Origin: Minicystis rosea
Lineage (GTDB): Bacteria; Myxococcota_A; Polyangia; Polyangiales; Polyangiaceae
Assembly (NCBI GenBank): GCA_001931535.1
Contig: CP016211.1
Location: 4,503,573 to 4,567,572, forward strand
Direction: 5' to 3'
DNA length: 64,000 bases
In this document: piece after piece, positions 22,336-36,431 of the stretch
How positions within the stretch are numbered: the stretch's first letter is position 1
How the letters are laid out: every line of letters starts with the position of its first letter
Position numbers and translations under genes: made by a program
Notes under the pieces: model-generated
The model's input: the letters and a program-made list of their open reading frames with translations, nothing else
The model's database searches: none
Told to the model about the DNA's origin: nothing

Positions 22336-24917
22336 GGCGTGTCCACCTCTCCGCTCTGTTGCGCTTTGCCATTGATGGTGACGCTGGTCGCCTTGAGCAG
22401 AACGCCGCCCGATGACACCGAGAAGCTCGAACTGCCGCAGTGGAACGTCACGATCCCGCCCGTGAGCGACATCGCGCCACCGACCTTGATGCTGAGCGCG
22501 CTCCCAGACTTGATGCGATGGTCCTTGCCCGCCGTGCTCGTGAATGAGCCGCTGACGGTGCGGTTCAGCGCCGTCTTTACCGCCTTCACGATGTTGCCGC
22601 CCAACGCCGAGATCCGGATGCTGGCAGCCTTGTCGACGGAAGCGCCCAGCGTGCTCGTGGAAACGCTCGTCGCTTGGATGTTGTGATCGCCCCCGACAGC
22701 GAAGACGGAGCGACCCAGCGTGGTCCACCGGACCATGGCCGGCGTCATCACGGCATGGGGACCGCCGATCAACTCGACCATCGCGCCATCAACCTTGGCG
22801 TTGCGATGCCCCGGCCCGGGGCCAGCCGGACCGTTGGCCCCGGCATCCGGGCCAGCGGCGCCGCCGCCTGGCGCGGTGCCGCCTTCGCCGTCGTGGTCAG
22901 GCCGCGGTTCCCACGGAGCGTAGCCAGCACCATACACCGCGGCCATGACCGCATCGGCCCCGGGGATGTGCCCGAGGACTGCTTGAATGGCCGCGTCCTT
23001 GGCGCCCTCCTCGCCGCCGTGGATCGCCCCGGCCGCGACCCCAGCAGCGGTGCCCGCGACATGAGGTACCAACGCGCCGACGGCTGCGACGGTCTTCCCC
23101 CACCTGCCCATGGCCTCGCCGAGCTTGGCACCAGCAGCGGACGCTGCATGAATCGCGGCGGCTTCGGCGAGCGCCACGACACCATCGACGGGGTTGCCGA
23201 CCCTCTCCAAGAGCGCGCCGCCCACAACAACCGATTCGCTCCCTGCCAGGATGCCCATGTCGCCCTTGACGCGAATCGTCTGCGAGCCCCCTACGGCGAG
23301 CGACTGCGAGCCCGCGTCCGTCACGTACTGCAACTTGACGGAGACCTTCTCGCTCGCGCCGATCGAGAACATCTGCGCGCCGCCTACGGCGCAGACTTCG
23401 TTGCCCGCCGTCTGCGTCATCATGTTGTTGGCGACGACGGTGGTCTTTCCCGTGCCCGCGGACCACGCCATGTGCTGACGGCCTGCGACGTCGTCGAAGC
23501 GCACGGCGTTCTTGCGTGCTCCACCTGGCGAGCTCGACGTGGCGAGGCTCGTCACGGTCTTGTTTGCCGGCAGGCTGTGCGGCGGGCCGTGTTTCGCATT
23601 GTACGCGCGACCGACGACTACGGGACGATCGGGATCGCCATCCTCGAACGCGACGGCGACCTCCCAGCCGACGCGCGGGATCAGCATGGATCCAGGGAGG
23701 TTCGGCTGCGCGACGCGGACCGGGAGGCTGCTCGTGTCGTCCGTGGCGCCCTCGCGATCCCAGAAGAAGCGCACCCGCACGCGACCAGCTGCATCGGTGT
23801 GGATCTCCTGCCCGGGAGGCCCCGTCACGACCGCGGTGTGCAGCCCGGCGATTCGCGGGCGCGGCGTCACGCGAGGCAGGCGATACGGGACGTCGAGCGG
23901 GATCGCCGACACCTCCAGCTCGTAGCGAGGCTCGTCTGCGCGCCATCGGTGGTCGATCGCGACGGCTACGTGCGGTCCATTGGGCCGCGCCGCGCCCCGG
24001 TAGTCGCTGCTAGGCTCCATGCGAAATGACAGCCCGGGGGCGAGGGCGAGCGCCGTACTTGCGAAACGTATCGCGCGCGCGTCGGCGCGGAGGCCCTCCA
24101 AGAGCAGCCGTGCGCGCCTTGCCCCCGCGCCGGGCGTCTTGAAACGACCCGGCGCTTCGTAAACCTCCACAGCCTTCTCCGCGCCGAGCCCGTCCAGCCC
24201 GGTGCCTTCGAGCAGGGCCGTGGGGTGCTCTGGGTCGAAATCGCGCAGCGTGACCGTGCCGGCGCGGCGTCGCCGACGCGCCGAACAATCCGACGCGACC
24301 GCGCGATCGGGCACGAGGTGCGACGCGTCCACAAGCGGGAGCGGAGCGGACAGCGCGGGCGGCGCGCTCACGGAGGAGTCTTCCAGCACGAAGGCGTCGA
24401 AGCCGTCGCGCGGCTCGAAGCGGAAGTAGAGTCCCTCGTCTTCGCACAGCCGGCGCACGAACGTGAGATCGTCCTCCGCGTACTGCACGACATACTCGCG
24501 CGGGGAGTGCTTGGTCAGGAGCGAAGATGCCACGTGGTCGGCGTCGAAGCCGGCAGCGCCGAGCACCTTACGAATCACGTCGGGCACGCTCATGTGCTGG
24601 AACACGCGCGTCCGCCTCCGGAGCGAGAGCACGTGGACGGCCGAGCGCACCATCAGCTCGTACCGACGCGCATCCGTCTCCTGCGCCGTCGCGATGGCGA
24701 TGAAGCGCGTGACGATCCCGTGGAACACGCGCTCTCCGGCCGCAGTTGCGCAGAAGACGGCGCACGCCTTGCCGAGCACTGCGCGGGCGTCCACGGGCTC
24801 TGGAGAGACCATCTCCAACTCGGCAACGAGGGGCTCGCCCAGCGCCTCGTGCATGCGCAAGGCGCGGCACTCCAGGGGAACGCGCGCATCCGCCAGCCGA
24901 AACATCACGTGTGCCAT
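22332..24917 (-). CDS. vgrG: type VI secretion spike protein VgrG (paralog 1, 861 aa)
   Basis: Gp27/gp5-like core with 'RPRIAGLHTAVVTGPPGQEIHTD', 'IPRVGWEVAVAFEDGDPDRPVVVGRAYN' and 'GARKNAVRFDD', then a beta-helix of GxxxVxVGG repeats and a Gly/Ala/Pro-rich C-terminal extension. Confidence 0.85.
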   Translation of the reverse strand: MAHVMFRLADARVPLECRALRMHEALGEPLVAELEMVSPEPVDARAVLGKACAVFCATAAGERVFHGIVTRFIAIATAQETDARRYELMVRSAVHVLSLRRRTRVFQHMSVPDVIRKVLGAAGFDADHVASSLLTKHSPREYVVQYAEDDLTFVRRLCEDEGLYFRFEPRDGFDAFVLEDSSVSAPPALSAPLPLVDASHLVPDRAVASDCSARRRRRAGTVTLRDFDPEHPTALLEGTGLDGLGAEKAVEVYEAPGRFKTPGAGARRARLLLEGLRADARAIRFASTALALAPGLSFRMEPSSDYRGAARPNGPHVAVAIDHRWRADEPRYELEVSAIPLDVPYRLPRVTPRPRIAGLHTAVVTGPPGQEIHTDAAGRVRVRFFWDREGATDDTSSLPVRVAQPNLPGSMLIPRVGWEVAVAFEDGDPDRPVVVGRAYNAKHGPPHSLPANKTVTSLATSSSPGGARKNAVRFDDVAGRQHMAWSAGTGKTTVVANNMMTQTAGNEVCAVGGAQMFSIGASEKVSVKLQYVTDAGSQSLAVGGSQTIRVKGDMGILAGSESVVVGGALLERVGNPVDGVVALAEAAAIHAASAAGAKLGEAMGRWGKTVAAVGALVPHVAGTAAGVAAGAIHGGEEGAKDAAIQAVLGHIPGADAVMAAVYGAGYAPWEPRPDHDGEGGTAPGGGAAGPDAGANGPAGPGPGHRNAKVDGAMVELIGGPHAVMTPAMVRWTTLGRSVFAVGGDHNIQATSVSTSTLGASVDKAASIRISALGGNIVKAVKTALNRTVSGSFTSTAGKDHRIKSGSALSIKVGGAMSLTGGIVTFHCGSSSFSVSSGGVLLKATSVTINGKAQQSGEVDTP

Positions 24918-24925
24918 GGCTCGTC

Positions 24926-27118
24926 CTACCCGTCGGTCTTGTCGGTGCCGGTGACCTTGGTCTTCACGCCGCTCTCGAATGGGCCCTGCACGTCGATCGA
25001 CGTCGGCGTCATCTTGACCGTCATGCCCGCGGCCTCGATGGTGAGGCTGCTCTTGGCCTTGACGATCACCTTGCTCCCCCGGAGCGACGCCGAGCCATCG
25101 ATCGAGAGCGATGCCGCTCCCTTGAAGCCATCCTGTACGAAGCCGGCGGCCGAGACCTTGTAGGAACCGAACGACTCATCGAGCGCGATCGCCTTCAGCC
25201 CGTACTGCGGCGCTCGCACGTTGATCGGTCCACCGCTCGCTCGCACGTGCGCACCGGTGACGCCGACCACGGAGGCCACGGTGCCGATCTCGTGCCAACA
25301 CCCGCCCACGACCACGGCGGCGCCGCCGCTCACGTGACGACTGTGCCCCGCGATGGCCGTCTCGATCTTCGCCGCGCCCACGACACGCGCCAGCGTGCTC
25401 GAGACCTCTGTGGCGTAGTCGCCGCCGACCTCGAATAGCCGCGCCCCGCCGACCGAGACCGACTCGGAGCCGAGGCCGAAGGCCATCGCGCCGCCCACGT
25501 TGACGGCGCGGCTCGCGCCAACCGACGTGCTCTGCGCGCCGTCGACCTTCACCGCGCACACCGCGCCGACGATCTGCGTGCGGTTCGCACCGATCTCGTG
25601 CTTGTCGGTGCCCTTGACGTCTACGGTCTTGTCGCTCTCGGTCCGCTCGTTGTAGTCCGACGACGCGTTGAGGAGCATGTCTTCGTGCCCCGCGGCATCG
25701 TCCATACGCAGGGTGTTGGCGCTGCCGCCTCCGGGCGTCGTGCGCGATCCGAACGCGCTTCGGACCTTCTGTGCGGGTAGCGCCTCCGCGGGCCGTGCCG
25801 CGCCGTTGTCGAGCCGGCCGAGCACGTAGGGCTTGTCGGCGGACGCGCCCGAGAACCCGAGCAGAGCCTCCCACCCGACGCGCGGCAAGAACACCGAGCC
25901 GGACGTTTGCGGCTGGAGCGGCCGGATCCAAGTCGAGCTGGTTTCGTCCTTCTTGCGGCGCCGATCCCAGCGCAGGAGCGCGGTCACCTGGCCGTGCGCG
26001 TTGGTGTGGATCTCCGTGCCGGCCGGCCCTGTCACGGTCGCGGTCTGGACTCCGGCGATCGTTGGCGGCTCGGCACGACGCGGGCGGTACGGCGTCTCGG
26101 CCGGGATAGCGATGAATTCGGCATCGAACCGGCGGCCGTCGCGACCAGTTGAGTCGTTGCCCCGCAACTGCCATCGCACGTCGAGCAGGAGCCAGCGCGC
26201 GTTGACATCCTTCCGCGCTGCCCCCGTGAGCTCGAACGTGCGGCCCGGCGCGAATCGTCGGCAATTCGTCTTTCCCGTCAGCAGGACGCGCTCGGCGCGC
26301 GCCTCTTCGAGACGCAGATTGGCGACCACTTCGCCCGCGGCAGGATCGCGGTAGCCACCGGGCATCTCATTGCACGTCAGCGCTCCGACCCCTGCTCTCG
26401 CCTCTGCCCGAAGATCGGCGCGGGGATGCTCGAAATCGTAGTCGCAGAGGCGCACGGCGTCGCGCACGACCGCGCGCCGGAGGCGCACGGCGAATACGCA
26501 GTCCTGCTCGACGAACCCGGCGTCCGCCGCGAAGGGAAGCAGCGCGTCCCCAGCTATCGGCGCGAAGGCGGCAGGGCTGTCCGCGAAGACCACGACATCC
26601 GACCCGCTCTCGTGGTCGACGAACCACGCGATCCCTTCGGCGGCGAGGAGCCGGGAGAAGAAGGCAAGATCGCTCTCGAACGCCTGCACGCACTGCGCAT
26701 GTTTCGGTAGCCGGCGCGACACGCGCACGTCGACGTCCAGGCCGTGCTCCGTCAGCACGGCCCGCGCGATCTCGGCTGCGTCCTGCTGAAGAAAGACCTG
26801 ATGGTCGATCGCGTCCGCGAGCGGAGCGACGCGAGGAGCGATCGTCAGTCGCAGCTCTCCGTAGCGCTGTTCCGCGTCCTCAACGACGCCATGCACGGTC
26901 CGCTCGCCGCCGTCGCCCAACGCCACGGCGAACGTCGCCCGTTGGCCCACCAAACCGTCGAGGTCCACGGCGGCCTTCTCCCCGGAGCCATCGACTGCGC
27001 ACGCCGTGACCACGATCGTGAACGGCTGGCCGAAACCCTCCACGCCGCGCGCGCTCTCCACGAGCAGGCGCTCCGCCGCACCTTCCACGACAAGGCGTCC
27101 GAGTCGTTCGCGTGCCAT
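24926..27118 (-). CDS. vgrG: type VI secretion spike protein VgrG (paralog 2, 730 aa)
   Basis: 'PPTIAGVQTATVTGPAGTEIHTNAHGQV', 'LPRVGWEALLGF...KPYVLGRLDN' and beta-helix repeats. The start ATG directly abuts the vgrG3 stop (TAGATG). Confidence 0.85.
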   Translation of the reverse strand: MARERLGRLVVEGAAERLLVESARGVEGFGQPFTIVVTACAVDGSGEKAAVDLDGLVGQRATFAVALGDGGERTVHGVVEDAEQRYGELRLTIAPRVAPLADAIDHQVFLQQDAAEIARAVLTEHGLDVDVRVSRRLPKHAQCVQAFESDLAFFSRLLAAEGIAWFVDHESGSDVVVFADSPAAFAPIAGDALLPFAADAGFVEQDCVFAVRLRRAVVRDAVRLCDYDFEHPRADLRAEARAGVGALTCNEMPGGYRDPAAGEVVANLRLEEARAERVLLTGKTNCRRFAPGRTFELTGAARKDVNARWLLLDVRWQLRGNDSTGRDGRRFDAEFIAIPAETPYRPRRAEPPTIAGVQTATVTGPAGTEIHTNAHGQVTALLRWDRRRKKDETSSTWIRPLQPQTSGSVFLPRVGWEALLGFSGASADKPYVLGRLDNGAARPAEALPAQKVRSAFGSRTTPGGGSANTLRMDDAAGHEDMLLNASSDYNERTESDKTVDVKGTDKHEIGANRTQIVGAVCAVKVDGAQSTSVGASRAVNVGGAMAFGLGSESVSVGGARLFEVGGDYATEVSSTLARVVGAAKIETAIAGHSRHVSGGAAVVVGGCWHEIGTVASVVGVTGAHVRASGGPINVRAPQYGLKAIALDESFGSYKVSAAGFVQDGFKGAASLSIDGSASLRGSKVIVKAKSSLTIEAAGMTVKMTPTSIDVQGPFESGVKTKVTGTDKTDG

Positions 27119-29326
27119 CTACGCCCCCACCTTCGACGTCGCCTTACGGGCCGTCGTGGCGGCGTCGATCTTCGTCGTCCCGCCGTCCACCATCAGTTTG
27201 CCGCCGATCTTCGCCGTCGAGCCGCCGGTCGCCTTGAGACTGCCCGCGACCTTGATTGTGATTGTCGGCGCCTCGATCTGGATCTTGCCGCCCGCGCTCA
27301 TGCTCACGGTGCCCCCAACCTTGATCCGGCCAACAGCCGCCAACGTCTCGACGTCGCCCGCGGCGGTCTCCGACACCGGACCCGCCGAGACGGCCTTCGC
27401 GCCGGTCACGCTCTCATCACAGCCGCGCCCAGCGACGACGTTGCGCGCGCCGCCGACCAGCTCGATCCGCATGTCGGCCACGCTCTCGTGCGTGCCAAGC
27501 CCCGCGAGCGCCGCCAAGTTGCCGCCGACGAGCTCGGCGTACGCGCCCTGAACAGTGGTCATGGCCTCGTTGCACTGGAGGCCGTAGAGCGCGCCGATCG
27601 CCTCCGTGTAGCTCCCGACCTTCACGTGCCGATTCGCTTTGACGCCGATGTCCTCCACCGCGCCCACCGTCTCGGTGCGCGCGCCTTTGACGAGCGTCTG
27701 TACATCTGCCCCCACGTCGACATTCTGCGAGGCGCCCACGGTGATCGCCTGCGACTTCACGTGCACGCCATAGCCGCCGCTGATGTCGTGCGTCTCGTTC
27801 GCGCCGACCTTCGTGCTCGCGTTCGCACCGACGCTCACGCCTTGGGTGTTCGACGCGTGAACAAACATCTCCTGCCCGCTGGCTGCATCGCCGAAACGGA
27901 TCTCGTTCGACGTTCCGTCGTGCGGCGACGTGTTCGATCGCAGCGCCGAGGTCGCCTTCATCGCCGGCAGCGCATAGGGCGGCGCCGTTATCGCGTTGTA
28001 GACCTGGCCGAGCACCAATGGCTCGTCCGGGTTCCCATCGACGTACGCCACGCCTACCTCCCACCCCACGCGCGGCAGGAGCATCGAGCCGCCCATGTTC
28101 ATTTGCAGCGTGCGCGTCCATCGCGACGACGTGTCGTCGAGGGTGCCCGAGGGATCCCAAGGCAGCGCGAGCTTGACCGAACCGAGATCGTCGACGTGGA
28201 TCTCCTCTCCGCGCGGGCCAGTCACGAACGCGGTCTCGACCCCCTCGATCCTCGGCCGGATTGCCGGGGGCGATGGCCGGAACGTGCGTTCGTTCCCGTC
28301 GAGCGAGCGCGGCACGAGCAGGACGCGGTTGCGATAGGGCCAAGCCGTCGTGGTGCTGTCCGCTGCCTGCTCGAGCGCGTGCTCAACCTCCACGATTAGC
28401 CAGTGGCCGTTGAACGCAGCGTCAGCGGCGCCGTGGATCCCCACCACACGGCCGGGTTGAAGCCGCGTGCACCCGCTCTCTCCGCGCGCTGAGACCTGGA
28501 GCCGTTGAAGCTGTGCCAGGCGCACGCGCGCGCGGGCCTCCGCGGCGTCGGCGTGCAGCACACAGGCCGGGAACTCGAACCATTCGCACGCGCCGTCGCC
28601 GGCCCGACCTTCGATCAGCACGTCCGGCTGGTGCACGTCGTAGTCGCGCACGTGGACCGCGTCGTGCGCCAGCTCGTCGGCGCGCGCGAGCGAGAAGAAG
28701 GACGACACCGTGCCTGACATCCCGCTCGCGTCGGCGAAGGGCACGCGCACGTCGCCGAGGATGCCGTCGTAAGAGCCTGGGGCGTCACCGAAGACGATGC
28801 GCGGCTCGCCCTCGTGCGCGTCGAACCAGTACGAAATGCCCTCTTCGGCGAGTAGCCGCTCGATGAACGTCCATTCGCTCTCGTCGTACTGCACGCACTG
28901 CATGCGGCGGGCGTAGCGGCCCGCGAGCCGCCAAGTTACGTGCATCGCGGGCACGCACGCATCGCGGAGCACCTCGTCCACGATCTCCTGCGTCGTCTTC
29001 TTCTGGAAGATGCGATAGCCGCTCCGGAGGCTAAGCGGCCACACCTCGACGGACAGCTCGAGAACGTAGCGGTGCTCGTCGCGGTACGGCCCATCGTAGG
29101 CCGCGTGCGTGACCACGAGAGGGATGTCCCGCTCCGGTCCGTCGCCGTCGTCGGCGAGCCGCAGCGCGGCTTGCGCGAGGCCAAGCCCGTCGAGGTCCAC
29201 GTCGGCGTCCTCCGTGAGCACGTCTACGGTCCAGTTCGGAAGCGCGTTCATCGCTTCGAGCCCGCGGACGTGGACCACGCGGCAGGCGCCGAGCCCTTCG
29301 CACGACAGCGACACGTACTTGCTCAT
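27119..29326 (-). CDS. vgrG: type VI secretion spike protein VgrG (paralog 3, about 735 aa)
   Basis: ATG at 29326 (M20 of ORF 27119..29383) with a GGAGAG RBS. 'RPRIEGVETAFVTGPRGEEIHVDDLGSVK', 'LPRVGWEVGVAYVDGNPDEPLVLGQVYN' and C-terminal beta-helix repeats. Overlaps the upstream gene stop (ATGA). Confidence 0.85.
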   Translation of the reverse strand: MSKYVSLSCEGLGACRVVHVRGLEAMNALPNWTVDVLTEDADVDLDGLGLAQAALRLADDGDGPERDIPLVVTHAAYDGPYRDEHRYVLELSVEVWPLSLRSGYRIFQKKTTQEIVDEVLRDACVPAMHVTWRLAGRYARRMQCVQYDESEWTFIERLLAEEGISYWFDAHEGEPRIVFGDAPGSYDGILGDVRVPFADASGMSGTVSSFFSLARADELAHDAVHVRDYDVHQPDVLIEGRAGDGACEWFEFPACVLHADAAEARARVRLAQLQRLQVSARGESGCTRLQPGRVVGIHGAADAAFNGHWLIVEVEHALEQAADSTTTAWPYRNRVLLVPRSLDGNERTFRPSPPAIRPRIEGVETAFVTGPRGEEIHVDDLGSVKLALPWDPSGTLDDTSSRWTRTLQMNMGGSMLLPRVGWEVGVAYVDGNPDEPLVLGQVYNAITAPPYALPAMKATSALRSNTSPHDGTSNEIRFGDAASGQEMFVHASNTQGVSVGANASTKVGANETHDISGGYGVHVKSQAITVGASQNVDVGADVQTLVKGARTETVGAVEDIGVKANRHVKVGSYTEAIGALYGLQCNEAMTTVQGAYAELVGGNLAALAGLGTHESVADMRIELVGGARNVVAGRGCDESVTGAKAVSAGPVSETAAGDVETLAAVGRIKVGGTVSMSAGGKIQIEAPTITIKVAGSLKATGGSTAKIGGKLMVDGGTTKIDAATTARKATSKVGA

Positions 29327-30486
29327 GAGCTCTCTCCCGAGCGTGCGAGGCGCGCGCGTGCCTCCTCGAACGCCTGCATCCATCGGCGCTGGAGCTCCGG
29401 AGCGCGATTCAGCGCGCGCCCCCAGCGCTCGTCCTCGCTCTGCTTCGCTTCGGGCGTCAGGCCGTGCCGGGCGAGCAGATCATTGACCTCGGCGCCCGTC
29501 GTGAGCTCCGCGACGAGCCGCGCGTGAAGCTCGATCGTCAGCATCGGCTCAGCGGTCGCGGGTGCACGCTCGAACGCCTCCGCGAGCGGGATGATCTTCC
29601 CGCTCGGCATCTCCAGCACCGTCGTTGCATCGGGATCGACGACAACCGGCACCGGAGCGGCATGATCGGCTTCGTGTCGTGCCACCCACGCGGGCGGCAC
29701 AGGCTCGTTTGACACGAGAGCAGCGTCGACCGGAGCCGCCGGCGCCCCGCTCACGAAGAACGCGGACGCCGTGAACGGCAGCGCGGCGTCGGCTTCCTGC
29801 ACGCCTCCCAGACGCGTCTCGTCGAGCCCGGGCGCCGTGGCATGCGCACGCTTGCGTCTCGGGAGCGGGACCGCAAGCGGCGGCGGGAGCGGCCCCGGCT
29901 CGCCCTCGCCGAACGGGAGCGCCCGTGTGCGCGGGCTCACGACCGTGGCGGTCTTCCCATCGCGCCCGCGCGGCGTCGGCCCCGTTTGGATGAGCCGCGG
30001 TCGCTCGGGCGCCGGCACGGGCGGTTCGCGGCGCTCGCCCTGAAGGAGCTCGAGCGCATCCGCGCGCAGCTTCGCATCCTCGGCGAGGCGGTCGGACCAG
30101 AGGCGGTGCAAGTGCGCCAGATCCGCGACGCCGAGCTTCATCTCTTCGAGGAACGCGACCGGATCCGGATGGGCCAGCCACGCTTGCAGGAAGTCGAACC
30201 ACGAGCGCAGATCCTCATCGAGCGGCGGGATTCGTCGTGTCCAGTGCGTGCGCGCCTCGGCCGTCGCCGCTTCGAGCGCATCGAAGAACGACGGATCGTC
30301 CTCGATCGCGTCGAGCACATGCTCATCCCACGCTTCCTCCGCGGCCTCCCACGTACGCGCATCGAGCCGCAAGAAACCAAGGAGCTCGCCCAGCCCGAGC
30401 CCATCCGTGAGCCCGGCCCGCACGAACGCGAACTGCGCGAGCGTCACGCCGTCGAGAGCCATCTCCGTCACGTCAGCCATCGGCAT
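29323..30486 (-). CDS. hypothetical protein between DUF2169 and vgrG3 (possible adaptor)
   Basis: ATG at 30486 (MPMADVTEMALDG...) within ORF 29323..30537. The stop overlaps the vgrG3 start. No recognisable domain. Acidic, helical N-terminus and a Pro-rich middle. Confidence 0.45.
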   Translation of the reverse strand: MPMADVTEMALDGVTLAQFAFVRAGLTDGLGLGELLGFLRLDARTWEAAEEAWDEHVLDAIEDDPSFFDALEAATAEARTHWTRRIPPLDEDLRSWFDFLQAWLAHPDPVAFLEEMKLGVADLAHLHRLWSDRLAEDAKLRADALELLQGERREPPVPAPERPRLIQTGPTPRGRDGKTATVVSPRTRALPFGEGEPGPLPPPLAVPLPRRKRAHATAPGLDETRLGGVQEADAALPFTASAFFVSGAPAAPVDAALVSNEPVPPAWVARHEADHAAPVPVVVDPDATTVLEMPSGKIIPLAEAFERAPATAEPMLTIELHARLVAELTTGAEVNDLLARHGLTPEAKQSEDERWGRALNRAPELQRRWMQAFEEARARLARSGESS

Positions 30487-31465
30487 CCACCCGGATCTCG
30501 CGCAGCGCGGTCTTGCCGCGTCCCATCGGGAACGCATGGCGCACGGTGAGCTCGATGCGATCGTCGAGTGGCTCGATCAGCACCGTGTCGACGGTGGGCC
30601 GCACCCCCACCGACCGCCCGTCGTTGTAGCGCCCGTGCAGCGAGACGGGCAGCGACGGAAGCTCCGCCTTCCAGAGACCGTCGAGTGTCATCCCGACGAG
30701 CGCGATTGGATCACCCGCGCCGAGCGGCGGATCAAACTGCAACGCGACCGGGGCCACGTTGTTGTGCCGCACGTCGAAGTCGGCGGGCATGCGCGGCATC
30801 CGCGTCCTCCGCCATATGTCATCGAAGGTGCCGGCGAGCTCCGCGCGCGGCGACCAGTGCGCGCTGATGGCGCCGAAGCCGACTGGCTCGGGTCGGTCGG
30901 CGGCGCTCGTGATTGGGAATGCGGGGTCCTCGATTTGCGGCGCGGGCATGTCGACCAACTCGGCCGCGCTCCGACCGAAGCCGCGCCCCACGGGGTTGCG
31001 CCGCTCCACGACGCTCTTGTCCAAGCTCGTACCGCCGTACGCGCGCTCCCACACGATCGGCTTGCGCTCGAAGGACGCGGCCGGGCCCACTGTCACGCCG
31101 AGCGCGCCGCGGTAGTAGACGCGCTCGCCGTGGACCCGCAGGTGGATTTTGCGGTCGCGCACGAGGGCGCCGACGTCCACCGCGAGCACGGGACGCTGCG
31201 ACACCGCCGCACCGACAATCACGACGTCCGTGCCACGCTTCTCTACGCAGATGTCGCCGGGGTAGCGGATGCAACTGTCCTCGGCGTTGGGGAAGTATGA
31301 GATGTCGCCGGCGCGCACCGGAACCTGCTCATCCGCGAGCGCGAGGCGCCCGCGCGCGTCCCGGCGGAAGGTCGCCTTCACGACGGCAAGCACGACGTCG
31401 CGGCCGTCGGGAGCGGCAAGGGGCGCGGCGAGCGCGGCGAAGGATGTCGCGTTGGCGAGGGCCAT
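30473..31465 (-). CDS. DUF2169-family T6SS-associated protein
   Basis: ATG at 31465 (M64 of ORF 30473..31654). N-terminus 'LANATSFAALAAPLAAPDGRDVVLAVVKATFRRD' fits the DUF2169 N-terminal pattern (N.T.f......vvvKaTf). About 330 aa in the typical position beside vgrG. Confidence 0.55.
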   Translation of the reverse strand: MALANATSFAALAAPLAAPDGRDVVLAVVKATFRRDARGRLALADEQVPVRAGDISYFPNAEDSCIRYPGDICVEKRGTDVVIVGAAVSQRPVLAVDVGALVRDRKIHLRVHGERVYYRGALGVTVGPAASFERKPIVWERAYGGTSLDKSVVERRNPVGRGFGRSAAELVDMPAPQIEDPAFPITSAADRPEPVGFGAISAHWSPRAELAGTFDDIWRRTRMPRMPADFDVRHNNVAPVALQFDPPLGAGDPIALVGMTLDGLWKAELPSLPVSLHGRYNDGRSVGVRPTVDTVLIEPLDDRIELTVRHAFPMGRGKTALREIRVDADG

Positions 31466-31469
31466 GGGG

Positions 31470-32117
31470 CTAGGTCGAGTCCTGGTGCCCGCGCAACCGA
31501 CCGCAAGTGGAGCATCGGAAGACGTAGGTTGATACGGTGTCCGCTTCGACCCACTCGGCAAGATCGGCCGCTTCATCGGCGCGGAAGTCGAGAACCTCTC
31601 CCACCAGAGTGACAACCTCGACCCTGCGCTCGGCCGCCGCTCGCGCCCAATCATCGATATCCCAGCTACCTACGAAGATCGCGGGACGATGGCAGCAGAA
31701 CTGCCATTGCTCACCCTGCCACGTGCTGTAGTTTGGAGTTCGCAGGAGTTCTTCGAGGTGCTCTGGCGCGATCCGGACGCTGTACCACTCCTCGTCGTCC
31801 TCGGTGCGGGGCACCACCTCGTATCCCAGCGACGGCCACGGCGGGGAGTCCGTGCCGTGCGTGATACCCTTCGCAGCATGCTCCGCATCCACGATACCAA
31901 ACTCGGTATCTTTCATCCACGATGCGCGCCCCCCACGCAGACACGTGTAGCAGGCCACAAGCCTGTCCTTGTGTACGATCTCGAAGATGGGAACGCCACG
32001 GACGCCGCACATGGCGCAGTTGCCCGTCAACTTGAAGCCTTCCGCATCGGCGACACGCGCCTCAAACAGCGGGAATGGCATCCCGAGTTCCGCAAACGTT
32101 GACGTGTCAGAGCCCAT
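31470..32117 (-). CDS. cbrC: CbrC-family (UPF0167) protein
   Basis: 215 aa with an AAGGAG RBS. N-terminus 'FPLFEARVADAEGFKLTGNCAMCGVRG' and C-terminus 'YVFRCSTCGRL' parallel the CbrC/UPF0167 pattern (LPxFxYHPDPxxTG...CxxC ... FxCxxCG). Confidence 0.55.
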   Translation of the reverse strand: MGSDTSTFAELGMPFPLFEARVADAEGFKLTGNCAMCGVRGVPIFEIVHKDRLVACYTCLRGGRASWMKDTEFGIVDAEHAAKGITHGTDSPPWPSLGYEVVPRTEDDEEWYSVRIAPEHLEELLRTPNYSTWQGEQWQFCCHRPAIFVGSWDIDDWARAAAERRVEVVTLVGEVLDFRADEAADLAEWVEADTVSTYVFRCSTCGRLRGHQDST

Positions 32118-32132
32118 GGCAGTCTCCTTTGG

Positions 32133-32357
32133 TCAGAGCGGGATCGGTTTGTAGTTGAGGAGTTCGTCCACGATCTCCTCATCGCTGGCGTTCGTAAATC
32201 GACTGTCCCAGAAGATGACGTTGATGGGCATGGGGTGGACGACGGCTTCGTCCAGGCGATCGACTAGCGCGTCAATCTCCTCCTCCGTCCCCTCTGCGTT
32301 GCGGATCTTGTGCACCATGATCACGAGTTCGTCTCGCGAAAGCTGGCGTTGGGACAT
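32133..32357 (-). CDS. colicin/pyocin DNase-type immunity protein (Im family)
   Basis: 74 aa. 'LSRDELVIMVHKIRNAEGTEEEIDALVDRLDEAVVHPMPINVIFWD...SDEEIVDELLNYKP' parallels Im9 ('EFLQLVTTICNA...[27 protein letters not shown]'). AAGGAG RBS. Sits 16 nt downstream of the Rhs stop. Confidence 0.7.
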   Translation of the reverse strand: MSQRQLSRDELVIMVHKIRNAEGTEEEIDALVDRLDEAVVHPMPINVIFWDSRFTNASDEEIVDELLNYKPIPL

Positions 32358-32372
32358 CGTGCGCTCCTTGCT

Positions 32373-35300
32373 TCAGAAGTGATAGCCGCGATCGAGAATG
32401 CTCTGATGAAACCGCGGGGTGACCACAGCCAAGTTGCCCATATCGTAAACCCCGCCACCGTGCTGAATCGGCGTCAGGTGATGGATCACGTATCGTTTTT
32501 GCCCCTTGTACTGTTGCTCCCACGTGGTGAATGGTGATTCTCCGCGCCTCATCGTTTTGACCTGTCCCTCGTCGAACCGCGCAGATGCCTTTGGATCAGC
32601 GGCAACGGCCCTCCAAAACGCCTCGCGAAAGTCGTCAAAGGTCCTGAACCAACGTCCCTTGAGAGCTTCTGCGACGGACTTCGGAATGCGGCCAGCGTTA
32701 CGCTCTGTTCCCTTCATCCAGTTCTCAGGATCCGGGTGATTCTCCCCCATGTATGCCTTCCCCGGGCTATTCCGAAGCAGCCCCCAGGGATCGACGTCCG
32801 CCGCGGGACTCCCGTCAAACGCGAACAGGTTTCGCCCACCACGCACGCCCAGCGGATCCGGGCTAATCCACCTTCCCACCTCCGGGTCGAAGTACCGGAA
32901 GCGCGTGTAACAGAGCCCCGTCTCTTCATCGAGGAACTGCCCCATGAGCCGGAACGGCGTCGAGACCGCGCGCTTCGCCTGCGGATCTCTCCACGTCTCG
33001 ATCACCTGGCCCCACGCCGAGTGCATCGCGGCCCAGGCCACGCGGCCGTCCTGATCGACGAGCTCCTTCGGAATCCCGAGGTGGTCGTTGATGTACGTGA
33101 ACACCTCGCCCTGCTCCTGGTGGAGCATCGGCTCGAAAGTGCCGGGCTCGTGAACGAAGAACCGTGCTCCCTTCTCCGGATCGAGCTCGCCCGCGAGCAC
33201 GTTGCCGTCCCACAGGTATTCGACGACGCCGATCGGCGGCAGCGCCTCCGGCCCCTTCTCGTAGGCGAGCACGACCATCTTCTTGATGTCGCGCCGCTCG
33301 GCGGGGACGATCTGCTTCCGGACGCGGCGCCCGAACGCATCATACGTGTAGAGGACACGACGGCCGTCCGAGAGGCGGGTCTCGCGTAGCCGATCGCGGC
33401 AGTCCCAAAGGTACTCCGTCGACACGCCGGTCCGCTTCTTCGTGTGCTTCGTCCGCCGGCCCTGGCCGTCGTTCTCATAGCGCGCGCTCGGCGTCTCCGT
33501 CAGCAGATCGCCCTCGCGCGTGTGGAACGGGTGGATGCGATCGACATCGGCCAGGTCACGCAGCATGTTGAATAGGCCGCCGGTGCCGTCGTAGTCGAAG
33601 ACCTCCCGATGCCTGCCGAGCGCCGCCTCGATGAGTTGACCTAGCGGATCGTGCTGATAGGTCGTCGTGCCGTGTCGCGCGTCGGCGACGGTGCGCACGC
33701 GGCTGGCGTTGTCGTACTGGAGTTGGCGGCGCGAGAGGAGCGTCGCGGCGCCGACCCCCGTGGGCGCTGGCGCCGTGACTTGCTGGTCGACGAGCCGGTC
33801 CATGGCGTCATATGCGCGAAGAATGTCGACGCCTCCCGCGTACACGTGACGCCGCACGTCGCGGCCGAGGACGTCGCGCTGGATGGCGACGCGATGCCCG
33901 TCGTGCTCGACGCCGACGATGTCCCCCTGCGCGTCATAGTGGTAGTGCGTCGTGGCTCCGTTCGGCAGCGTGCGCGCGGTGCGACGTCCCTGCTCGTCGT
34001 AGGCGAACGTGATCGTCCGCTCGTCCTGCGTCTCCTTGATCACGCGGCCGAATGTGTCGCGCTCGAAGCTCGTCACGACCTTGCCGTTGTACTCGGTGAG
34101 CACCGCCTTCTTGACAAGTCCCAAGCGGTCGCGCTCGACCTTGATGGTGCCGTGCGGCGACAGGTCTGCGATCACGTTGCCCAGCGGATCATAAGCCAGG
34201 TTGCGGAACGTCCGGTCCGGGTAGTCGATACGCGAGAGGTTCTCCGCGAGCGAGTACGTGTACCGCAGCGTTCGGCCGTGGAAGCTCGTCTCCTCAATCA
34301 CACGGCCGGCGTCGTCGTAGTGCAGGCGGTACTCCTCGGCGCGCGGATCGGTGATGCTCCGCAGGCGTTCGAGCTCGTCGTACTTGAAGTGCCACTCCTG
34401 CTCCGTCGGATCGATGAGCTTCACGAGCGCATGCTGGCCCGCGTACTCCATGCGCGTCGTGTGGCCCTCCTCGTCGGTGACGGCAACGGCCCGCCCAATC
34501 GCGTCGTACTCGCACCGTGCCGTGGTGCGATCGGGCCGGTGGAGAGCGATCCTGCGCCCGAGCCGATCGTACTCGACACGGGTCACGCGGCCGAGCGCGT
34601 CCGTGCGCGTGAGCGGGCGCCCGAGAACGTCGTAGGTGCACCGCGTGACCGCCCCTCGGCCATCGGTCTCCTGCACGAGATTGTGCTGCTCGTCATACGT
34701 GAACGACGCGACGAGGCCAGCGTTCCCGTGCATCGCGGTCACACGGCCCCGGCCGTCGTACGTGAGCGTGAACCGCTCCCCGGTCGGGTGCGTCACCTCC
34801 TCGAGGGCGCCGCGGCCATCGTACGCGTACGTGGTGGCGTGGCCGCGCGGATCCACGTGCGCGACGAGCCGGTCGTCGTCGTACTCGAATGTCGTGGTGT
34901 TGCCCGCTTGGTCGATGCGCTCGACGAGGTTGGCGCGCGCGTCGTAGCGCAGCTTGATCTTCTCGCCCGCGGCGTTCGCCTCGGAGAGCAGGTGGTGGTC
35001 CTCGTCGTACTCGCGCACGCGGGCCCACTGGCCGTCGAGCGTCTCCTCGCGGACCACCAGCCCGTCCTCGGTCCAGGTGAACTTGAGAGGCTCCTGGTTG
35101 CCGGAGGTGAACGTGACCCGCTTTTCGAGATCGAAGTGCAGATCGGCCTCGTAGATCCCGCGGTCGCCGATGGTGCGCACGCAGCGGCCCGTGGCGTCAT
35201 CGTACGTGTAGCGAAAGCTCACCCCAACCTGCGTCGTGCGCTTCGTGAGGCGGTGCCAGCCGTCGTACTCGTAGCGGAGCACGCCGCCGAGCGCGTCGGT

Positions 35301-36431
35301 TGCGGTCGCAAGCTCGCCCTCCGGATGGTATGTGTAATCGACCCACTGGCAGAGTTCGGACCGCTCTCCAGCGCTCCAGACCTCGACGCGCCGGATTCGT
35401 CCCTTGTCATCGGAGAGCACGCGCAGCTCGCGTCCAGCTGTGTCGACCACGCGCGCGAGCTTCCCGGCCTCGTAGTGAAGCTCTACGCGGTTGCCCCACG
35501 CGTCGCGCACGAGGCGGAGCACCGCGCGTCCACCGGCATCGAGCGGCGCGAACACACGCACAAGCCGGCTCTCGGCGCTCTCGACCTCGAACGCGCCCGC
35601 CGACGTCACGCGGAGCGTGAGCTGGTCGCGCCGGTGGAATGTGGTCTCACCCGGCGCGATCTTCTTGAAGTGGACAGCGCGGCCTTCCTCGATGCGCAGG
35701 CGCCAGACGTCGTCCCCGGGCTCGATCCACTGCGCGAAGCAGTGCGTCCACCCGCCTTTACCGAACGGGCCGCCGCGCTCATTGGAACGCGCCGAGGAGT
35801 AGAAGCGCTGCCATTCGACCAGGATCATGCCTGGGAGCGTGAGTTCCGTTGTGTCGTCAACGACGAAGCCCGTGGCGACGGTCACGGGCTCGCCGGCCGT
35901 GGGCGTCTTGGAGGCGTTTTGGGGAAGGAGCGCAATCGGCTTCCGCTCGTCGTCGCCGCCGCCATCCGCTGTCGACGCGCCCGACGATCCGGCGCCTCCC
36001 CCCTCGACCAGCGCGCCAGTCTGCTGCGCAACACCGCCCTTCGGAGAGGGCTTGTTCATCGCGACTGTGTCGCCCGTCGTCGCTACGCCCTTGCCGTCCA
36101 CCAGCGTGCGCGAGGAGCCGCTCGTCACCTCGACGTTGCCGGCGACGCCCGCAATGCCATGCGACACGATATCTCCCCCGAGCACCTGCGAAGGCGCGTT
36201 GCCCGGCGAATCGGTGGCCATGTAGCTACCCTTGACCACGACCTCCGCCCCGGCAATCGTGGTCGCCGATTCGGTGCCCGATGCCTTCGAGGTGTCTGCG
36301 GTGGTCACGACGGGAGTGGGCACAGGGGCGCCGGGCGGCGTCGGCGGGTAAAGGCTCGTCTGCGGCGCCGCGACGGCCTTGTGTTTCGTCTTCTTGGTCG
36401 CGACCTTTTTGCCGCCCGACGTCGTACCCAT
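32373..36431 (-). CDS. rhs: Rhs/YD-repeat polymorphic toxin: N-terminal PAAR-like region, Rhs core, C-terminal colicin-E9-type HNH DNase domain
   Basis: 1352 aa with dozens of YD repeats ('RYEYDGWHRL', 'YTYDDATGR', 'YDPLGN') and the Rhs core terminus 'PFRLMGQFLDEETGLCYTRFRYFDPEVGRWISPDPLG...DPWGL'. The last 134 aa (about 32373-32777) match the colicin E9 DNase: 'KRYVIHHLTPIQHGGGVYDMGNLAVVTPRFHQSI' against E9 '[32 protein letters not shown]'. N-terminus 'GGDIVSHG...VEVTSGSSRTLVDGKGVATTGD' is PAAR-like (tentative). Confidence 0.85.
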   Translation of the reverse strand: MGTTSGGKKVATKKTKHKAVAAPQTSLYPPTPPGAPVPTPVVTTADTSKASGTESATTIAGAEVVVKGSYMATDSPGNAPSQVLGGDIVSHGIAGVAGNVEVTSGSSRTLVDGKGVATTGDTVAMNKPSPKGGVAQQTGALVEGGGAGSSGASTADGGGDDERKPIALLPQNASKTPTAGEPVTVATGFVVDDTTELTLPGMILVEWQRFYSSARSNERGGPFGKGGWTHCFAQWIEPGDDVWRLRIEEGRAVHFKKIAPGETTFHRRDQLTLRVTSAGAFEVESAESRLVRVFAPLDAGGRAVLRLVRDAWGNRVELHYEAGKLARVVDTAGRELRVLSDDKGRIRRVEVWSAGERSELCQWVDYTYHPEGELATATDALGGVLRYEYDGWHRLTKRTTQVGVSFRYTYDDATGRCVRTIGDRGIYEADLHFDLEKRVTFTSGNQEPLKFTWTEDGLVVREETLDGQWARVREYDEDHHLLSEANAAGEKIKLRYDARANLVERIDQAGNTTTFEYDDDRLVAHVDPRGHATTYAYDGRGALEEVTHPTGERFTLTYDGRGRVTAMHGNAGLVASFTYDEQHNLVQETDGRGAVTRCTYDVLGRPLTRTDALGRVTRVEYDRLGRRIALHRPDRTTARCEYDAIGRAVAVTDEEGHTTRMEYAGQHALVKLIDPTEQEWHFKYDELERLRSITDPRAEEYRLHYDDAGRVIEETSFHGRTLRYTYSLAENLSRIDYPDRTFRNLAYDPLGNVIADLSPHGTIKVERDRLGLVKKAVLTEYNGKVVTSFERDTFGRVIKETQDERTITFAYDEQGRRTARTLPNGATTHYHYDAQGDIVGVEHDGHRVAIQRDVLGRDVRRHVYAGGVDILRAYDAMDRLVDQQVTAPAPTGVGAATLLSRRQLQYDNASRVRTVADARHGTTTYQHDPLGQLIEAALGRHREVFDYDGTGGLFNMLRDLADVDRIHPFHTREGDLLTETPSARYENDGQGRRTKHTKKRTGVSTEYLWDCRDRLRETRLSDGRRVLYTYDAFGRRVRKQIVPAERRDIKKMVVLAYEKGPEALPPIGVVEYLWDGNVLAGELDPEKGARFFVHEPGTFEPMLHQEQGEVFTYINDHLGIPKELVDQDGRVAWAAMHSAWGQVIETWRDPQAKRAVSTPFRLMGQFLDEETGLCYTRFRYFDPEVGRWISPDPLGVRGGRNLFAFDGSPAADVDPWGLLRNSPGKAYMGENHPDPENWMKGTERNAGRIPKSVAEALKGRWFRTFDDFREAFWRAVAADPKASARFDEGQVKTMRRGESPFTTWEQQYKGQKRYVIHHLTPIQHGGGVYDMGNLAVVTPRFHQSILDRGYHF

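What the first reader, a model, noticed from the sequence alone, without database searches (positions are those of the whole stretch)
31470..32800. Rhs toxin tip is a colicin E9-type HNH DNase, followed by an Im-type immunity gene and a CbrC (colicin-E2-tolerance family) homolog
After the Rhs core boundary motif DPWGL, the last 134 aa align to the colicin E9 DNase H-N-H core ('HHLTPIQHGGGVYDMGNLAVVTPRFH'). The next gene (74 aa) looks like a colicin/pyocin DNase immunity protein. The gene after that is a UPF0167/CbrC-like protein with paired Cys motifs. CbrC is known only as a factor that alters sensitivity to the DNase colicin E2. Its placement directly behind a DNase-toxin/immunity pair, with AAGGAG RBSs on both, suggests a second protective or accessory factor for DNase toxins delivered by T6SS or Rhs. 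That linkage is not an established concept.
Basis: partly seen in the sequence, partly recalled or inferred. Interest (0 to 1): 0.75.

Follow-up and report, generated by a model that had tools for sequence, protein, structure and literature searches.

The report
Rhs DNase toxin, immunity, CbrC-like gene
A bacterial contact-weapon operon encodes a DNA-cutting toxin and its standard antidote, and it also carries a poorly understood 'CbrC' gene; that third gene is tied to such toxins only in this small lineage, so the idea that it is a second antidote is plausible but unproven.

Summary
On the minus strand, one operon reads rhs (32373-36431), im (32133-32357), cbrC-like (31470-32117), DUF2169, an unknown ORF and three vgrG genes.

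- **Toxin tip:** the 134 aa after DPWGL are a full colicin E9/pyocin S2-type HNH DNase (Pfam 113.6 bits; PDB E about 1e-27).
- **Immunity gene:** the 74-aa gene belongs to the Im9 family (ortholog profile E 1.6e-6; predicted fold TM 0.65-0.71 to Im9).
- **Third gene:** the 215-aa gene is UPF0167 (61 bits). It is a distant branch from E. coli CbrC, not an equivalog.

The proposed functional link is only weakly supported.
- Toxin, Im and CbrC-like genes together recur only in the immediate clade: two distinct metagenome loci. A further relative keeps CbrC-DUF2169 behind a SUKH-like gene.
- About 60 other UPF0167 loci from about 10 phyla have no DNase, Im, Rhs or T6SS neighbour and no conserved neighbour at all. 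The same is true of about 14 plasmid contexts of the E. coli-type branch.
- Seven other DNase/Im loci lack CbrC.

A few cases hint at an immunity-like role. One Salmonella plasmid has CbrC beside a bacteriocin operon with an orphan Im gene. Vibrio and Streptomyces plasmids have it next to SUKH immunity genes.

Verdict: an ordinary T6SS Rhs DNase-immunity pair, plus a lineage-specific CbrC-family gene whose protective role is untested.

The parts
32373..36431 (-). rhs gene (1352 aa): a T6SS Rhs/YD-repeat polymorphic toxin
   Evidence: ORF. Pfam: RHS_repeat x10 (E 4e-77), DUF6531, RHS core, Col-Pyo_DNase. YD_repeat_2x and Rhs_assc_core.
36048..36341 (-). N-terminal PAAR-like (DUF4150-type) region, aa 31-128. 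Presumed mount onto VgrG.
   Evidence: PF13665 Tox-PAAR-like, 26.5 bits, below the cutoff of 31, so weak.
32778..32792 (-). DPWGL motif (aa 1214-1218). Boundary between the Rhs core and the toxin tip, and the presumed autoproteolysis site.
   Evidence: index 1213. The RHS core and Rhs_assc_core hits end at aa 1218.
32376..32777 (-). C-terminal 134-aa toxin tip: a colicin E9/pyocin S2-type HNH DNase
   Evidence: PF21431, 113.6 bits; pyocin S8, colicin E9/E2/E7 and pyocin S2 DNase chains at E 1e-27 to 1e-23 over the full length. VPA1263 T6SS DNase model, C-terminal 108 aa. pI 9.8.
32364..32369 (-). AAGGAG ribosome-binding site, 6 nt before the im start codon
   Evidence: Read from the sequence.
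32133..32357 (-). im gene (74 aa): Im9-family DNase immunity protein
   Evidence: It keeps the helix-III aromatic pair as F-W where Im9 has Y-Y (alignments).
32124..32129 (-). AAGGAG ribosome-binding site, 6 nt before the cbrC-like start codon
   Evidence: Read from the sequence.
31470..32117 (-). cbrC-like gene (215 aa): UPF0167/PF03691. Acidic, with no TM segment and eight Cys, seven of them family-invariant.
   Evidence: 61.2 bits. (homology to E. coli CbrC). (invariant C34, C37, C56, C59, C142, C202, C205). (pI 4.7, net charge -16). (AF2 pLDDT 94.7). (no solved fold relative). (dN/dS 0.22-0.28).
31470..32790 (.). Low-GC stretch (0.56-0.64, against 0.68-0.72 in the flanks) that covers the tip, im and cbrC-like
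   Evidence: GC3 is 0.66, 0.80 and 0.74 for the three genes, against 0.82-0.89 for the Rhs core, DUF2169 and the vgrG genes.
30473..31465 (-). DUF2169 gene (330 aa), a T6SS adaptor-type protein. Its ATG lies 4 nt after the cbrC-like stop codon.
   Evidence: PF09937, 257.5 bits. Spacing read.
29323..30537 (-). Unknown ORF (up to 404 aa; the true start is probably further downstream). Conserved in L001.
   Evidence: no Pfam hit. (79% identity in L001).
27119..29383 (-). vgrG, copy 1
   Evidence: Phage_GPD, Gp5_trimer_C and Phage_base_V.
24926..27118 (-). vgrG, copy 2
22332..24917 (-). vgrG, copy 3

Best explanation
This is an auxiliary type VI secretion effector operon of a high-GC bacterium. 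I infer that the organism is Myxococcota-like.

**The toxin and its immunity protein.**
- Inferred from family knowledge: the Rhs protein is mounted on one of the three VgrG spikes through its PAAR-like N-terminus, with help from the DUF2169 adaptor. Its YD-repeat shell encloses the C-terminal domain, which is released at the DPWGL boundary.
- Shown by homology: that domain is a colicin E9/pyocin S2-type HNH DNase.
- Inferred: the DNase degrades the DNA of the injected neighbour.
- Shown by homology and fold: the 74-aa Im9-family protein is its cognate immunity protein.
- Inferred: the immunity protein blocks the DNase in the producer and its kin.

**The CbrC-like gene.**
- It is a real gene under purifying selection and sits in the same transcription unit.
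- Its protein is acidic and appears cytoplasmic. I predict two zinc sites.
- It lies between im and DUF2169.
- My preferred reading is that it is a lineage-specific, non-cognate supplementary protective ('tolerance') factor against colicin-type DNases. The analogy is the colicin E2 tolerance that overexpressed E. coli CbrC confers.
- That step is inference only. The link is confined to this small clade and is not a property of the UPF0167 family as a whole.
For: **Toxin and immunity identity:**

**Operon structure**
- Gaps of 15, 15 and 4 nt, with AAGGAG sites.
- No internal promoter-like site, and no terminator-like site between rhs and DUF2169.
- VgrG x3 and DUF2169 confirmed.

**CbrC-like is a functional gene**
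- dN/dS is 0.22-0.28.
- The AF2 model is confident, pLDDT 94.7.
- Cysteines are invariant across both branches of the family.

**Link to the cassette**
- The same Rhs-DNase / Im / CbrC / DUF2169 order occurs in L001 and in L056/L057.
- The low-GC stretch ends exactly at the cbrC/DUF2169 junction.
- dS for cbrC (0.87-1.22) exceeds that of DUF2169 (0.34-0.77) in every pair. It lies between the flanks and im/tip, where dS is 1.2 to saturated.

**Functional precedent and parallels**
- CbrC is cited as protecting against colicin E2 (PMC3599342; Cariss 2010 as cited in PMC3224125 and PMC10327504).
- Salmonella plasmid pCFSAN006171_1 has CbrC 627 nt upstream of, and divergent from, a bacteriocin operon with an orphan PF01320 Im gene (E 5.8e-31).
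- In V. nigripulchritudo plasmids, CbrC sits in a co-directional run of Imm-NTF2-like, SUKH_5, CbrC and DUF7716 genes.
- It is adjacent to SMI1_KNR4 in a Streptomyces plasmid.
- The protein is acidic (pI 4.7) and the tip is basic (pI 9.8).
Against: - About 60 other UPF0167 loci have no DNase, Im, Rhs or T6SS neighbour and no conserved neighbour.
- Seven other Col-Pyo-DNase/Im loci have no CbrC.
- In relative L059 the upstream gene is SUKH-like, not Im-like. Its CbrC is nonetheless no more divergent than the others (63-70% identity).
- In L001 and L056 the CbrC GC3 is host-like (0.87-0.885).
- The gene is most tightly spaced with DUF2169 (4 nt).
- The protein is not an equivalog of E. coli CbrC (40.9 bits vs 300).
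- PMC3599342 describes the E. coli effect as possibly an envelope alteration. That would not apply to a T6SS-injected toxin.
- No binding or rescue data exist.
Confidence: 0.4

Rival explanations
1. The CbrC-like protein is an accessory of the T6SS loading module (DUF2169, unknown ORF, VgrG), for example a co-chaperone for the effector. It would have nothing specifically to do with DNase protection.
For: - There is a 4-nt gap to DUF2169, so translational coupling is likely.
- CbrC-DUF2169 adjacency is kept in all four related loci, including L059, where the upstream immunity gene is SUKH-like.
- CbrC identities among these loci do not separate by toxin type.
Against: - None of about 60 other UPF0167 loci has DUF2169, VgrG or Rhs within 8 kb.
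- The family occurs in taxa and replicons where I did not expect T6SS (my own knowledge; T6SS presence was not checked): Streptomyces, Deinococcus, and Clostridioides per PMC10327504.
- dS and GC for cbrC differ from those of DUF2169.
Confidence: 0.2
2. The CbrC-like gene is a passenger with an unrelated cytoplasmic function, such as stress response or metal or redox handling. On this view its position behind the toxin-immunity pair is a historical accident of this lineage.
For: - There is no conserved neighbourhood across phyla.
- In two Deinococcus plasmids it sits inside an acyl-CoA metabolism operon.
- In E. coli it lies next to cbrB and yieK and belongs to the CreBC regulon (PMC3599342).
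Against: - It is operonic and conserved in at least four related loci.
- It lies inside the compositionally deviant cassette.
- The only phenotype known for the family concerns the same DNase class as the adjacent toxin. Seeing this by chance together with the Salmonella plasmid case is unlikely, though not quantified.
Confidence: 0.2
3. The CbrC-like protein is an orphan or stand-alone immunity protein directed at a different toxin, not at the resident DNase. It would be kept as part of an immunity-gene stockpile.
For: - It sits beside SUKH-family immunity genes in three unrelated lineages: L059, V. nigripulchritudo plasmids and S. viridifaciens.
- SMI1_KNR4 genes lie 3-5 kb away in L071 and L002.
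- Some family members are fused to ankyrin repeats.
- It often lies among TA modules and transposases.
Against: - SUKH genes are common, so three adjacencies in about 80 loci is only a mild excess. I did not test this formally.
- No candidate partner toxin recurs.
- The one experimental datum for the family concerns a DNase colicin.
Confidence: 0.15

Closest known systems
Colicin E9/Im9, colicin E2/Im2 and pyocin S2/ImS2 DNase-immunity pairs
   Same: - The toxin tip aligns over the whole DNase domain, with the HNH motif (E about 1e-27).
- The immunity protein has the Im sequence profile and the Im fold.
- The immunity gene lies immediately downstream of the toxin.
   Different: - The DNase is the C-terminal tip of a T6SS Rhs protein, not of a receptor-binding and translocating bacteriocin.
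- There is no lysis gene.
- The immunity protein is shorter (74 aa vs 85-87 aa), and F-W replaces the Y54-Y55 hot-spot pair.
- An extra UPF0167 gene follows.
T6SS effectors with colicin-type DNase tips and DUF2169/PAAR-like loading. Examples are VPA1263 of Vibrio parahaemolyticus (NCBIfam NF047924) and, from my own knowledge, the Agrobacterium VgrG2-DUF2169-Tde2 module and Rhs-HNH effectors.
   Same: - The C-terminal 108 aa match the VPA1263 DNase model (76.8 bits).
- DUF2169 and vgrG genes are in the same operon.
- The N-terminus is PAAR-like (weak).
   Different: - The gene order is rhs first and the vgrG genes last, with three tandem vgrG copies.
- A UPF0167 gene lies between the immunity gene and the adaptor. 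I found no such arrangement in the literature I could search.
E. coli CbrC (YieJ), the PF03691 colicin E2 tolerance protein
   Same: - Same Pfam family.
- hhalign probability 97.6%.
- Invariant Cys pattern, the RTP..WQ..W motif and a C-terminal F-x-C-x-x-C...D.
- Acidic.
   Different: - Only 33% identity over the C-terminal 93 aa.
- It scores 40.9 bits against an equivalog cutoff of 300.
- It has an insertion of about 40 aa (DTEFG...THG) and a different N-terminal motif (PFPLFEA vs LPQFKYHP).
- The E. coli gene is chromosomal, next to cbrB, with no toxin nearby.
Orphan-immunity gene arrays (stockpiled immunity genes in polymorphic-toxin systems)
   Same: UPF0167 genes sit next to SUKH, Imm-NTF2-like or Im-type genes in some Vibrio, Streptomyces and Salmonella plasmids, and in L059.
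   Different: Most UPF0167 loci show no such neighbours. No toxin partner is known.

Membership tests
Rhs/YD-repeat polymorphic toxin (T6SS-associated) | Multiple YD/RHS repeats that form the shell | tested here: met
   PF05593 x10 stretches, E 4e-77. TIGR01643 x10.
Rhs/YD-repeat polymorphic toxin (T6SS-associated) | RHS-associated core that ends in DPxGL, followed by a variable toxin tip | tested here: met
   PF03527 and TIGR03696 end at aa 1218. DPWGL is at aa 1214-1218. The tip is 61-66% identical between relatives, against 79-88% for the core.
Rhs/YD-repeat polymorphic toxin (T6SS-associated) | PAAR or PAAR-like N-terminus and linkage to vgrG or adaptor genes | tested here: inconclusive
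   Tox-PAAR-like scores 26.5 bits, below the cutoff of 31. However, DUF2169 and three vgrG genes are in the same operon.
Rhs/YD-repeat polymorphic toxin (T6SS-associated) | T6SS-dependent secretion and killing | not testable with these tools
   Needs secretion and competition assays.
Colicin/pyocin HNH DNase domain (PF21431) | Profile match above the curated cutoff over the whole domain | tested here: met
   113.6 bits vs 27, profile positions 11-122 of 124. E9, E2, E7 and S2 chains at E 1e-27 to 1e-23 over about 126 residues.
Colicin/pyocin HNH DNase domain (PF21431) | H-N-H catalytic and metal-binding residues | tested here: met
   IHHLTPIQHGGGVYDMGNLAVVTPRFH aligns with [27 protein letters not shown] of pyocin S8. 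The HH, N and H residues are conserved.
Colicin/pyocin HNH DNase domain (PF21431) | DNase activity and toxicity | not testable with these tools
   Needs expression and nuclease assays.
Colicin/pyocin DNase immunity protein (PF01320, Im9 family) | Profile match above the curated cutoff | tested here: inconclusive
   The window protein alone scores 19.1 bits vs 21.2. Orthologs in L001 (29.5 bits) and L056 (24.8 bits) pass. The ortholog profile hits Im9 and Im2 at E about 2e-6.
Colicin/pyocin DNase immunity protein (PF01320, Im9 family) | Im-type helical fold | tested here: met
   AF2 single-sequence model with pLDDT 77, five DSSP helices. The top 31 Foldseek PDB hits are all Im proteins, TM 0.58-0.71, prob 0.90-1.00.
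Colicin/pyocin DNase immunity protein (PF01320, Im9 family) | Encoded immediately downstream of a cognate DNase | tested here: met
   15-nt gap after the rhs stop codon, with its own RBS. Same arrangement in L001, L056 and L072.
UPF0167 / CbrC family (PF03691) | Profile match above the curated cutoff | tested here: met
   61.2 bits vs 25, aa 32-213.
UPF0167 / CbrC family (PF03691) | Conserved CxxC motifs | tested here: met
   C34/C37, C56/C59 and C202/C205, plus C142, are invariant across both branches.
CbrC equivalog (NCBIfam NF040891, E. coli colicin E2 tolerance protein) | Score above the equivalog cutoff, i.e. orthology | tested here: not met
   40.9 bits vs 300, and only aa 107-213 align. 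BLASTP gives 33% over 93 aa.
CbrC equivalog (NCBIfam NF040891, E. coli colicin E2 tolerance protein) | Confers tolerance to a DNase colicin or toxin | not testable with these tools
   Needs a rescue or competition assay.
Immunity protein of a polymorphic toxin system (generic), as applied to the CbrC-like gene | Recurrent genomic association with a toxin family across lineages | tested here: not met
   Of about 60 UPF0167 loci, only the two close-clade loci show a colicin-type DNase or Im gene within 8 kb, and none of the rest has Rhs. There is no recurrent neighbour. 0 of 7 DNase/Im loci carry CbrC. The exceptions are the window clade and one Salmonella plasmid.
Immunity protein of a polymorphic toxin system (generic), as applied to the CbrC-like gene | Co-variation with the toxin tip (part of the swapped cassette) | tested here: inconclusive
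   GC and dS are intermediate between the cassette and the flanks. The L059 CbrC, which sits behind a SUKH-like gene, is not an outlier.
DUF2169 T6SS adaptor family (PF09937) | Profile match and vgrG linkage | tested here: met
   257.5 bits over the full length. vgrG genes lie downstream.

The most novel reading that the evidence does not exclude
UPF0167/CbrC proteins would be a previously unrecognised class of stand-alone, broad-spectrum protective proteins against colicin-type HNH DNases, with a zinc-binding fold unlike any solved structure. Most copies would be scattered 'orphan' genes. Occasionally one is captured into a toxin-immunity cassette (this Rhs operon), a bacteriocin plasmid (Salmonella pCFSAN006171_1) or an immunity-gene array (Vibrio plasmids). 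This would explain the unexplained colicin E2 tolerance phenotype of E. coli CbrC as direct protection from the DNase rather than an envelope effect.
Probability: 0.25. Interest if true: 0.7.

Novelty: new variant of a known kind. Interest (0 to 1): 0.4.

Why it matters
The toxin-immunity pair itself is textbook: an Rhs-delivered colicin-type DNase with an Im-type immunity protein.

The possible value lies in the third gene. UPF0167/CbrC is a widespread family with no structure and no mechanism. Its only known phenotype is tolerance to colicin E2, a DNase of the same class as the toxin encoded two genes upstream here. If the protein directly protects against HNH DNases, three things would follow:
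- It would be a second, non-cognate layer of defence in interbacterial warfare.
- It would explain an E. coli phenotype published in 2010 (Cariss et al.) that still has no mechanism.
- It would give the family a testable function.

My survey shows the linkage is not general, so this locus is a lead for a simple rescue experiment, not evidence of a new system.

Tried and rejected
**Searches on the CbrC-like protein that found nothing**
- PADLOC and PHROGs: no hit.
- PDB by sequence: none.
- The afdb50 library was unavailable.
- tblastn of the window protein against plasmids: no match.

**Family surveys**
- The broad alignment A2 was too diverse for locus finding.
- The metagenome scan with the close-clade alignment returned only 8 loci and added no new toxin context.
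- A Rosetta-stone search found only ankyrin and weak TPR fusions, plus an unknown N-terminal domain of about 150 aa. No fusion to a toxin or immunity domain appeared.

**Literature**
- Most 'CbrC' hits in T6SS papers are the URL mafft.cbrc.jp.
- Cariss et al. 2010 (PMC2897664) is not held.

**Structure prediction limits**
- I judged a toxin/Im/CbrC co-fold not feasible.

**Other points**
- The large ORFs next to some homologs (L047, L055, L013, L049) are not toxins. They are an Fe-S/FMN protein, an NRPS, a HEAT-repeat protein and an Ig/RCC1 protein.
- The killing domain of the Salmonella plasmid bacteriocin has no Pfam or PDB match, so it is not an E9-type DNase.

Full report
**What is in the sequence**

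All relevant genes lie on the minus strand. Reading 5' to 3', they are:
- rhs, 36431-32373 (1352 aa)
- a 74-aa gene, 32357-32133
- a 215-aa gene, 32117-31470
- a DUF2169 gene, 31465-30473
- an ORF with no Pfam hit, 30537-29323
- three tandem vgrG genes, 29383-22332

The gaps between the first four genes are 15, 15 and 4 nt. AAGGAG sits 6 nt before the second and third start codons. The consensus scans find no promoter-like site in 29.0-37.5 kb. They find no terminator-like site between rhs and DUF2169. The genes therefore read as one operon. Upstream of rhs are Ser/Thr kinases and a PEGA-domain protein. Window GC is 68%. The closest UPF0167 relatives in genome bins are Myxococcota and Polyangia bins. 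The Myxococcota origin is my inference.

**The toxin**

Pfam gives RHS_repeat x10, DUF6531, an RHS core, a weak PAAR-like N-terminus, and PF21431 Col-Pyo_DNase at aa 1235-1345 (113.6 bits). DPWGL is at aa 1214-1218, which leaves 134 aa. That tip matches the DNase domains of pyocin S8, colicin E9/E2/E7, pyocin S2 and klebicin G end to end, at E 1e-27 to 1e-23. The HH...N...H residues are conserved. NCBIfam also aligns it to the C-terminus of the VPA1263 T6SS DNase effector.

**The immunity gene**

- Alone, the 74-aa protein is just under the PF01320 cutoff (19.1 vs 21.2 bits). Its only coherent PDB hits are Im9, Im2, Im7 and Im8.
- Its orthologs in L001 and L056 are 64-69% identical, and both pass the Pfam cutoff.
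- A four-sequence profile hits Im9 and Im2 at E about 2e-6.
- A single-sequence AF2 model (pLDDT 77) has Im proteins as its top 31 Foldseek hits, TM 0.58-0.71.
- The helix-III aromatic hot-spot pair is kept as F-W (alignments).

**The third gene**

- It matches PF03691 UPF0167 at 61.2 bits.
- It is homologous to E. coli CbrC: hhalign probability 97.6%, and BLASTP 33% over the C-terminal 93 aa.
- It is far below the NCBIfam equivalog cutoff (40.9 vs 300 bits).
- Aligning both branches shows invariant C34, C37, C56, C59, C142, C202, C205 and D213, plus the RTP..W..W core. From this I predict two zinc sites. The window branch carries an extra insertion of about 40 aa.
- The protein is acidic (pI 4.7, net charge -16) and has no TM segment. 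The tip has pI 9.8.
- dN/dS among relatives is 0.22-0.28, so it is a constrained, functional gene.

**Is the placement meaningful? Evidence within the clade**

Only four close relatives (53-73% identity) exist in the searched collections.
- L001 has Rhs-DNase, Im, CbrC, DUF2169 and the unknown ORF.
- L056/L057 has Rhs-DNase, two Im-like genes, CbrC and DUF2169.
- L059 has a gene whose C-terminus is weakly SUKH/SMI1_KNR4-like (17.8 bits on a 60-aa fragment), then CbrC and DUF2169.
- L058 has an unknown upstream gene.

Pairwise identities are 79-88% for the Rhs core, 73-84% for DUF2169, 54-73% for CbrC (63-73% without L058), 64-69% for Im and 61-66% for the tip. The L059 CbrC is not an outlier.

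Synonymous divergence runs the same way. dS is 0.34-0.77 for DUF2169, 0.58-0.95 for the core, 0.87-1.22 for CbrC, 1.2-2.2 for Im, and 1.96 to saturated for the tip.

In the window, a low-GC stretch (0.56-0.64) spans exactly the tip, Im and CbrC. In L001 and L056, however, the CbrC GC3 is host-like.

CbrC is therefore a stable resident at the junction between the variable cassette and the DUF2169 module, and it shares part of the cassette's history.

**Family-wide evidence**

- A full HMMER scan of 1.84 billion representatives found only 300 relatives at E<=1e-3.
- A genome scan gave 51 loci (28-48% identity, apart from two short fragmentary matches) from Planctomycetota, Verrucomicrobiota, Chloroflexota, Armatimonadota, Myxococcota and others.
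- tblastn with the window's tip, Im, Rhs core, DUF2169 and VgrG found nothing outside the close clade.
- My own Im and tip HMMs, run against all six-frame ORFs of these loci, hit only L001 and L056.
- Pfam scans of the two upstream and two downstream ORFs (196 proteins) showed no family in more than three loci, and no toxin family among the families listed.
- All-against-all clustering of the neighbours found no conserved partner.

**Survey from the toxin side**

- One Rhs locus, L072, has an orphan tip (51% identity) plus Im, and another DNase locus is L073. Neither has CbrC.
- Five plasmid loci with Im-type genes related to the window's also lack CbrC.

**Residual hints from the E. coli-type branch**

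E. coli-type CbrC occurs on 39 plasmid or chromid records. I inspected about 14 distinct annotated contexts.
- V. nigripulchritudo plasmids show a co-directional run: a hypothetical gene, Imm-NTF2-like (22.6 bits, sub-threshold), a hypothetical gene, SUKH_5, CbrC and DUF7716.
- S. viridifaciens has CbrC next to SMI1_KNR4 and a transposase.
- Salmonella pCFSAN006171_1 has CbrC 627 nt upstream of, and divergent from, a 953-aa S-type bacteriocin. That gene is followed by an immunity gene, an orphan PF01320 Im gene (E 5.8e-31) and a lysis gene. Its killing domain is not E9-like.
- A Ralstonia plasmid has Endonuclease_NS, a hypothetical gene, then CbrC.
- Other contexts are TA modules, transposases or metabolic operons. 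Two Deinococcus plasmids place it in an acyl-CoA operon.

This pattern fits a scattered, accessory, immunity-like gene but does not prove one.

**Literature**

Full-text searches found no paper that connects CbrC, UPF0167 or PF03691 with T6SS, Rhs or polymorphic toxins. Most apparent hits are the URL mafft.cbrc.jp. CbrC is described only as CreBC-regulated and as protecting against colicin E2, possibly through an envelope change (PMC3599342; Cariss 2010 as cited).

**Conclusion**

The toxin-immunity pair is an ordinary new member of a well-known kind. The CbrC-like gene is a real, lineage-specific addition to the operon. That it is a supplementary protective factor against HNH DNases is the best single reading (about 0.4). 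It competes with a T6SS-accessory role, an unrelated passenger gene and an orphan immunity protein for another toxin. The linkage is not a general property of the family.

Noticed in passing
window 22332-29383 (-): Three tandem, divergent vgrG genes (28-35% identical to each other) follow the DUF2169 gene and the unknown ORF. The effector comes first and the spikes last, which is an unusual order for a vgrG-adaptor-effector module.
   Followed up: partly
window 29323-30537 (-), and L001 5149-5874: An ORF of up to 404 aa between DUF2169 and vgrG has no Pfam, PADLOC or PHROGs hit but is 79% identical in L001. It overlaps the DUF2169 stop by 65 nt as listed, so the true start is probably further downstream.
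   Followed up: partly
L056 727-1202: This relative carries two tandem Im-like genes after the DNase tip, 48% and 63% identical to the window Im. Only the second passes the PF01320 cutoff.
   Followed up: partly
L009, L010, L016, L023, L037, L047, L048; proteins P0030, P0045, P0047, P0060: Many UPF0167 proteins, mostly from Myxococcota bins, carry an N-terminal extension of about 130-200 aa with no Pfam hit. Rarer fusions are to ankyrin repeats (P0155) and to long TPR-like regions (P0101, P0105).
   Followed up: partly
alignment A1 columns about 60-100 (P0006-P0013): The Planctomycetota-type subfamily has an extra CxxC...CxxC zinc-ribbon insertion that the window protein and its close clade lack.
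   Followed up: no
L076 (Salmonella Rubislaw plasmid pCFSAN006171_1) 1507-4368: A 953-aa S-type-pyocin-domain bacteriocin whose C-terminal killing domain of about 150 aa matches no Pfam family or PDB chain. It is followed by an 85-aa immunity gene with no family, an orphan Im-type gene and a lysis gene. PLSDB annotates only the last 410 aa of the bacteriocin.
   Followed up: partly
L085 and L090 (Deinococcus plasmids): CbrC family genes sit inside a conserved acyl-CoA dehydrogenase, SDR and phosphotransferase operon in two Deinococcus species. In one of them an AbrB/MazE-type gene overlaps the start of CbrC.
   Followed up: no
L069 864-977: A second, partial copy of the CbrC N-terminus (aa 3-40, 45% identity) lies about 500 nt upstream of the full gene.
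   Followed up: no
window 40031-45868: Two Ser/Thr protein kinases, a sigma-70 region-4 protein and a PP2C phosphatase lie upstream of the operon. A PEGA-domain protein (38143-39132) and an unannotated 536-aa ORF lie directly upstream of rhs.
   Followed up: no
phage records MG065691.1 and MG065686.1: Two records labelled Campylobacter phage contain a gene whose translation is identical to E. coli K-12 CbrC. This looks like E. coli DNA contamination or a chimeric assembly.
   Followed up: no
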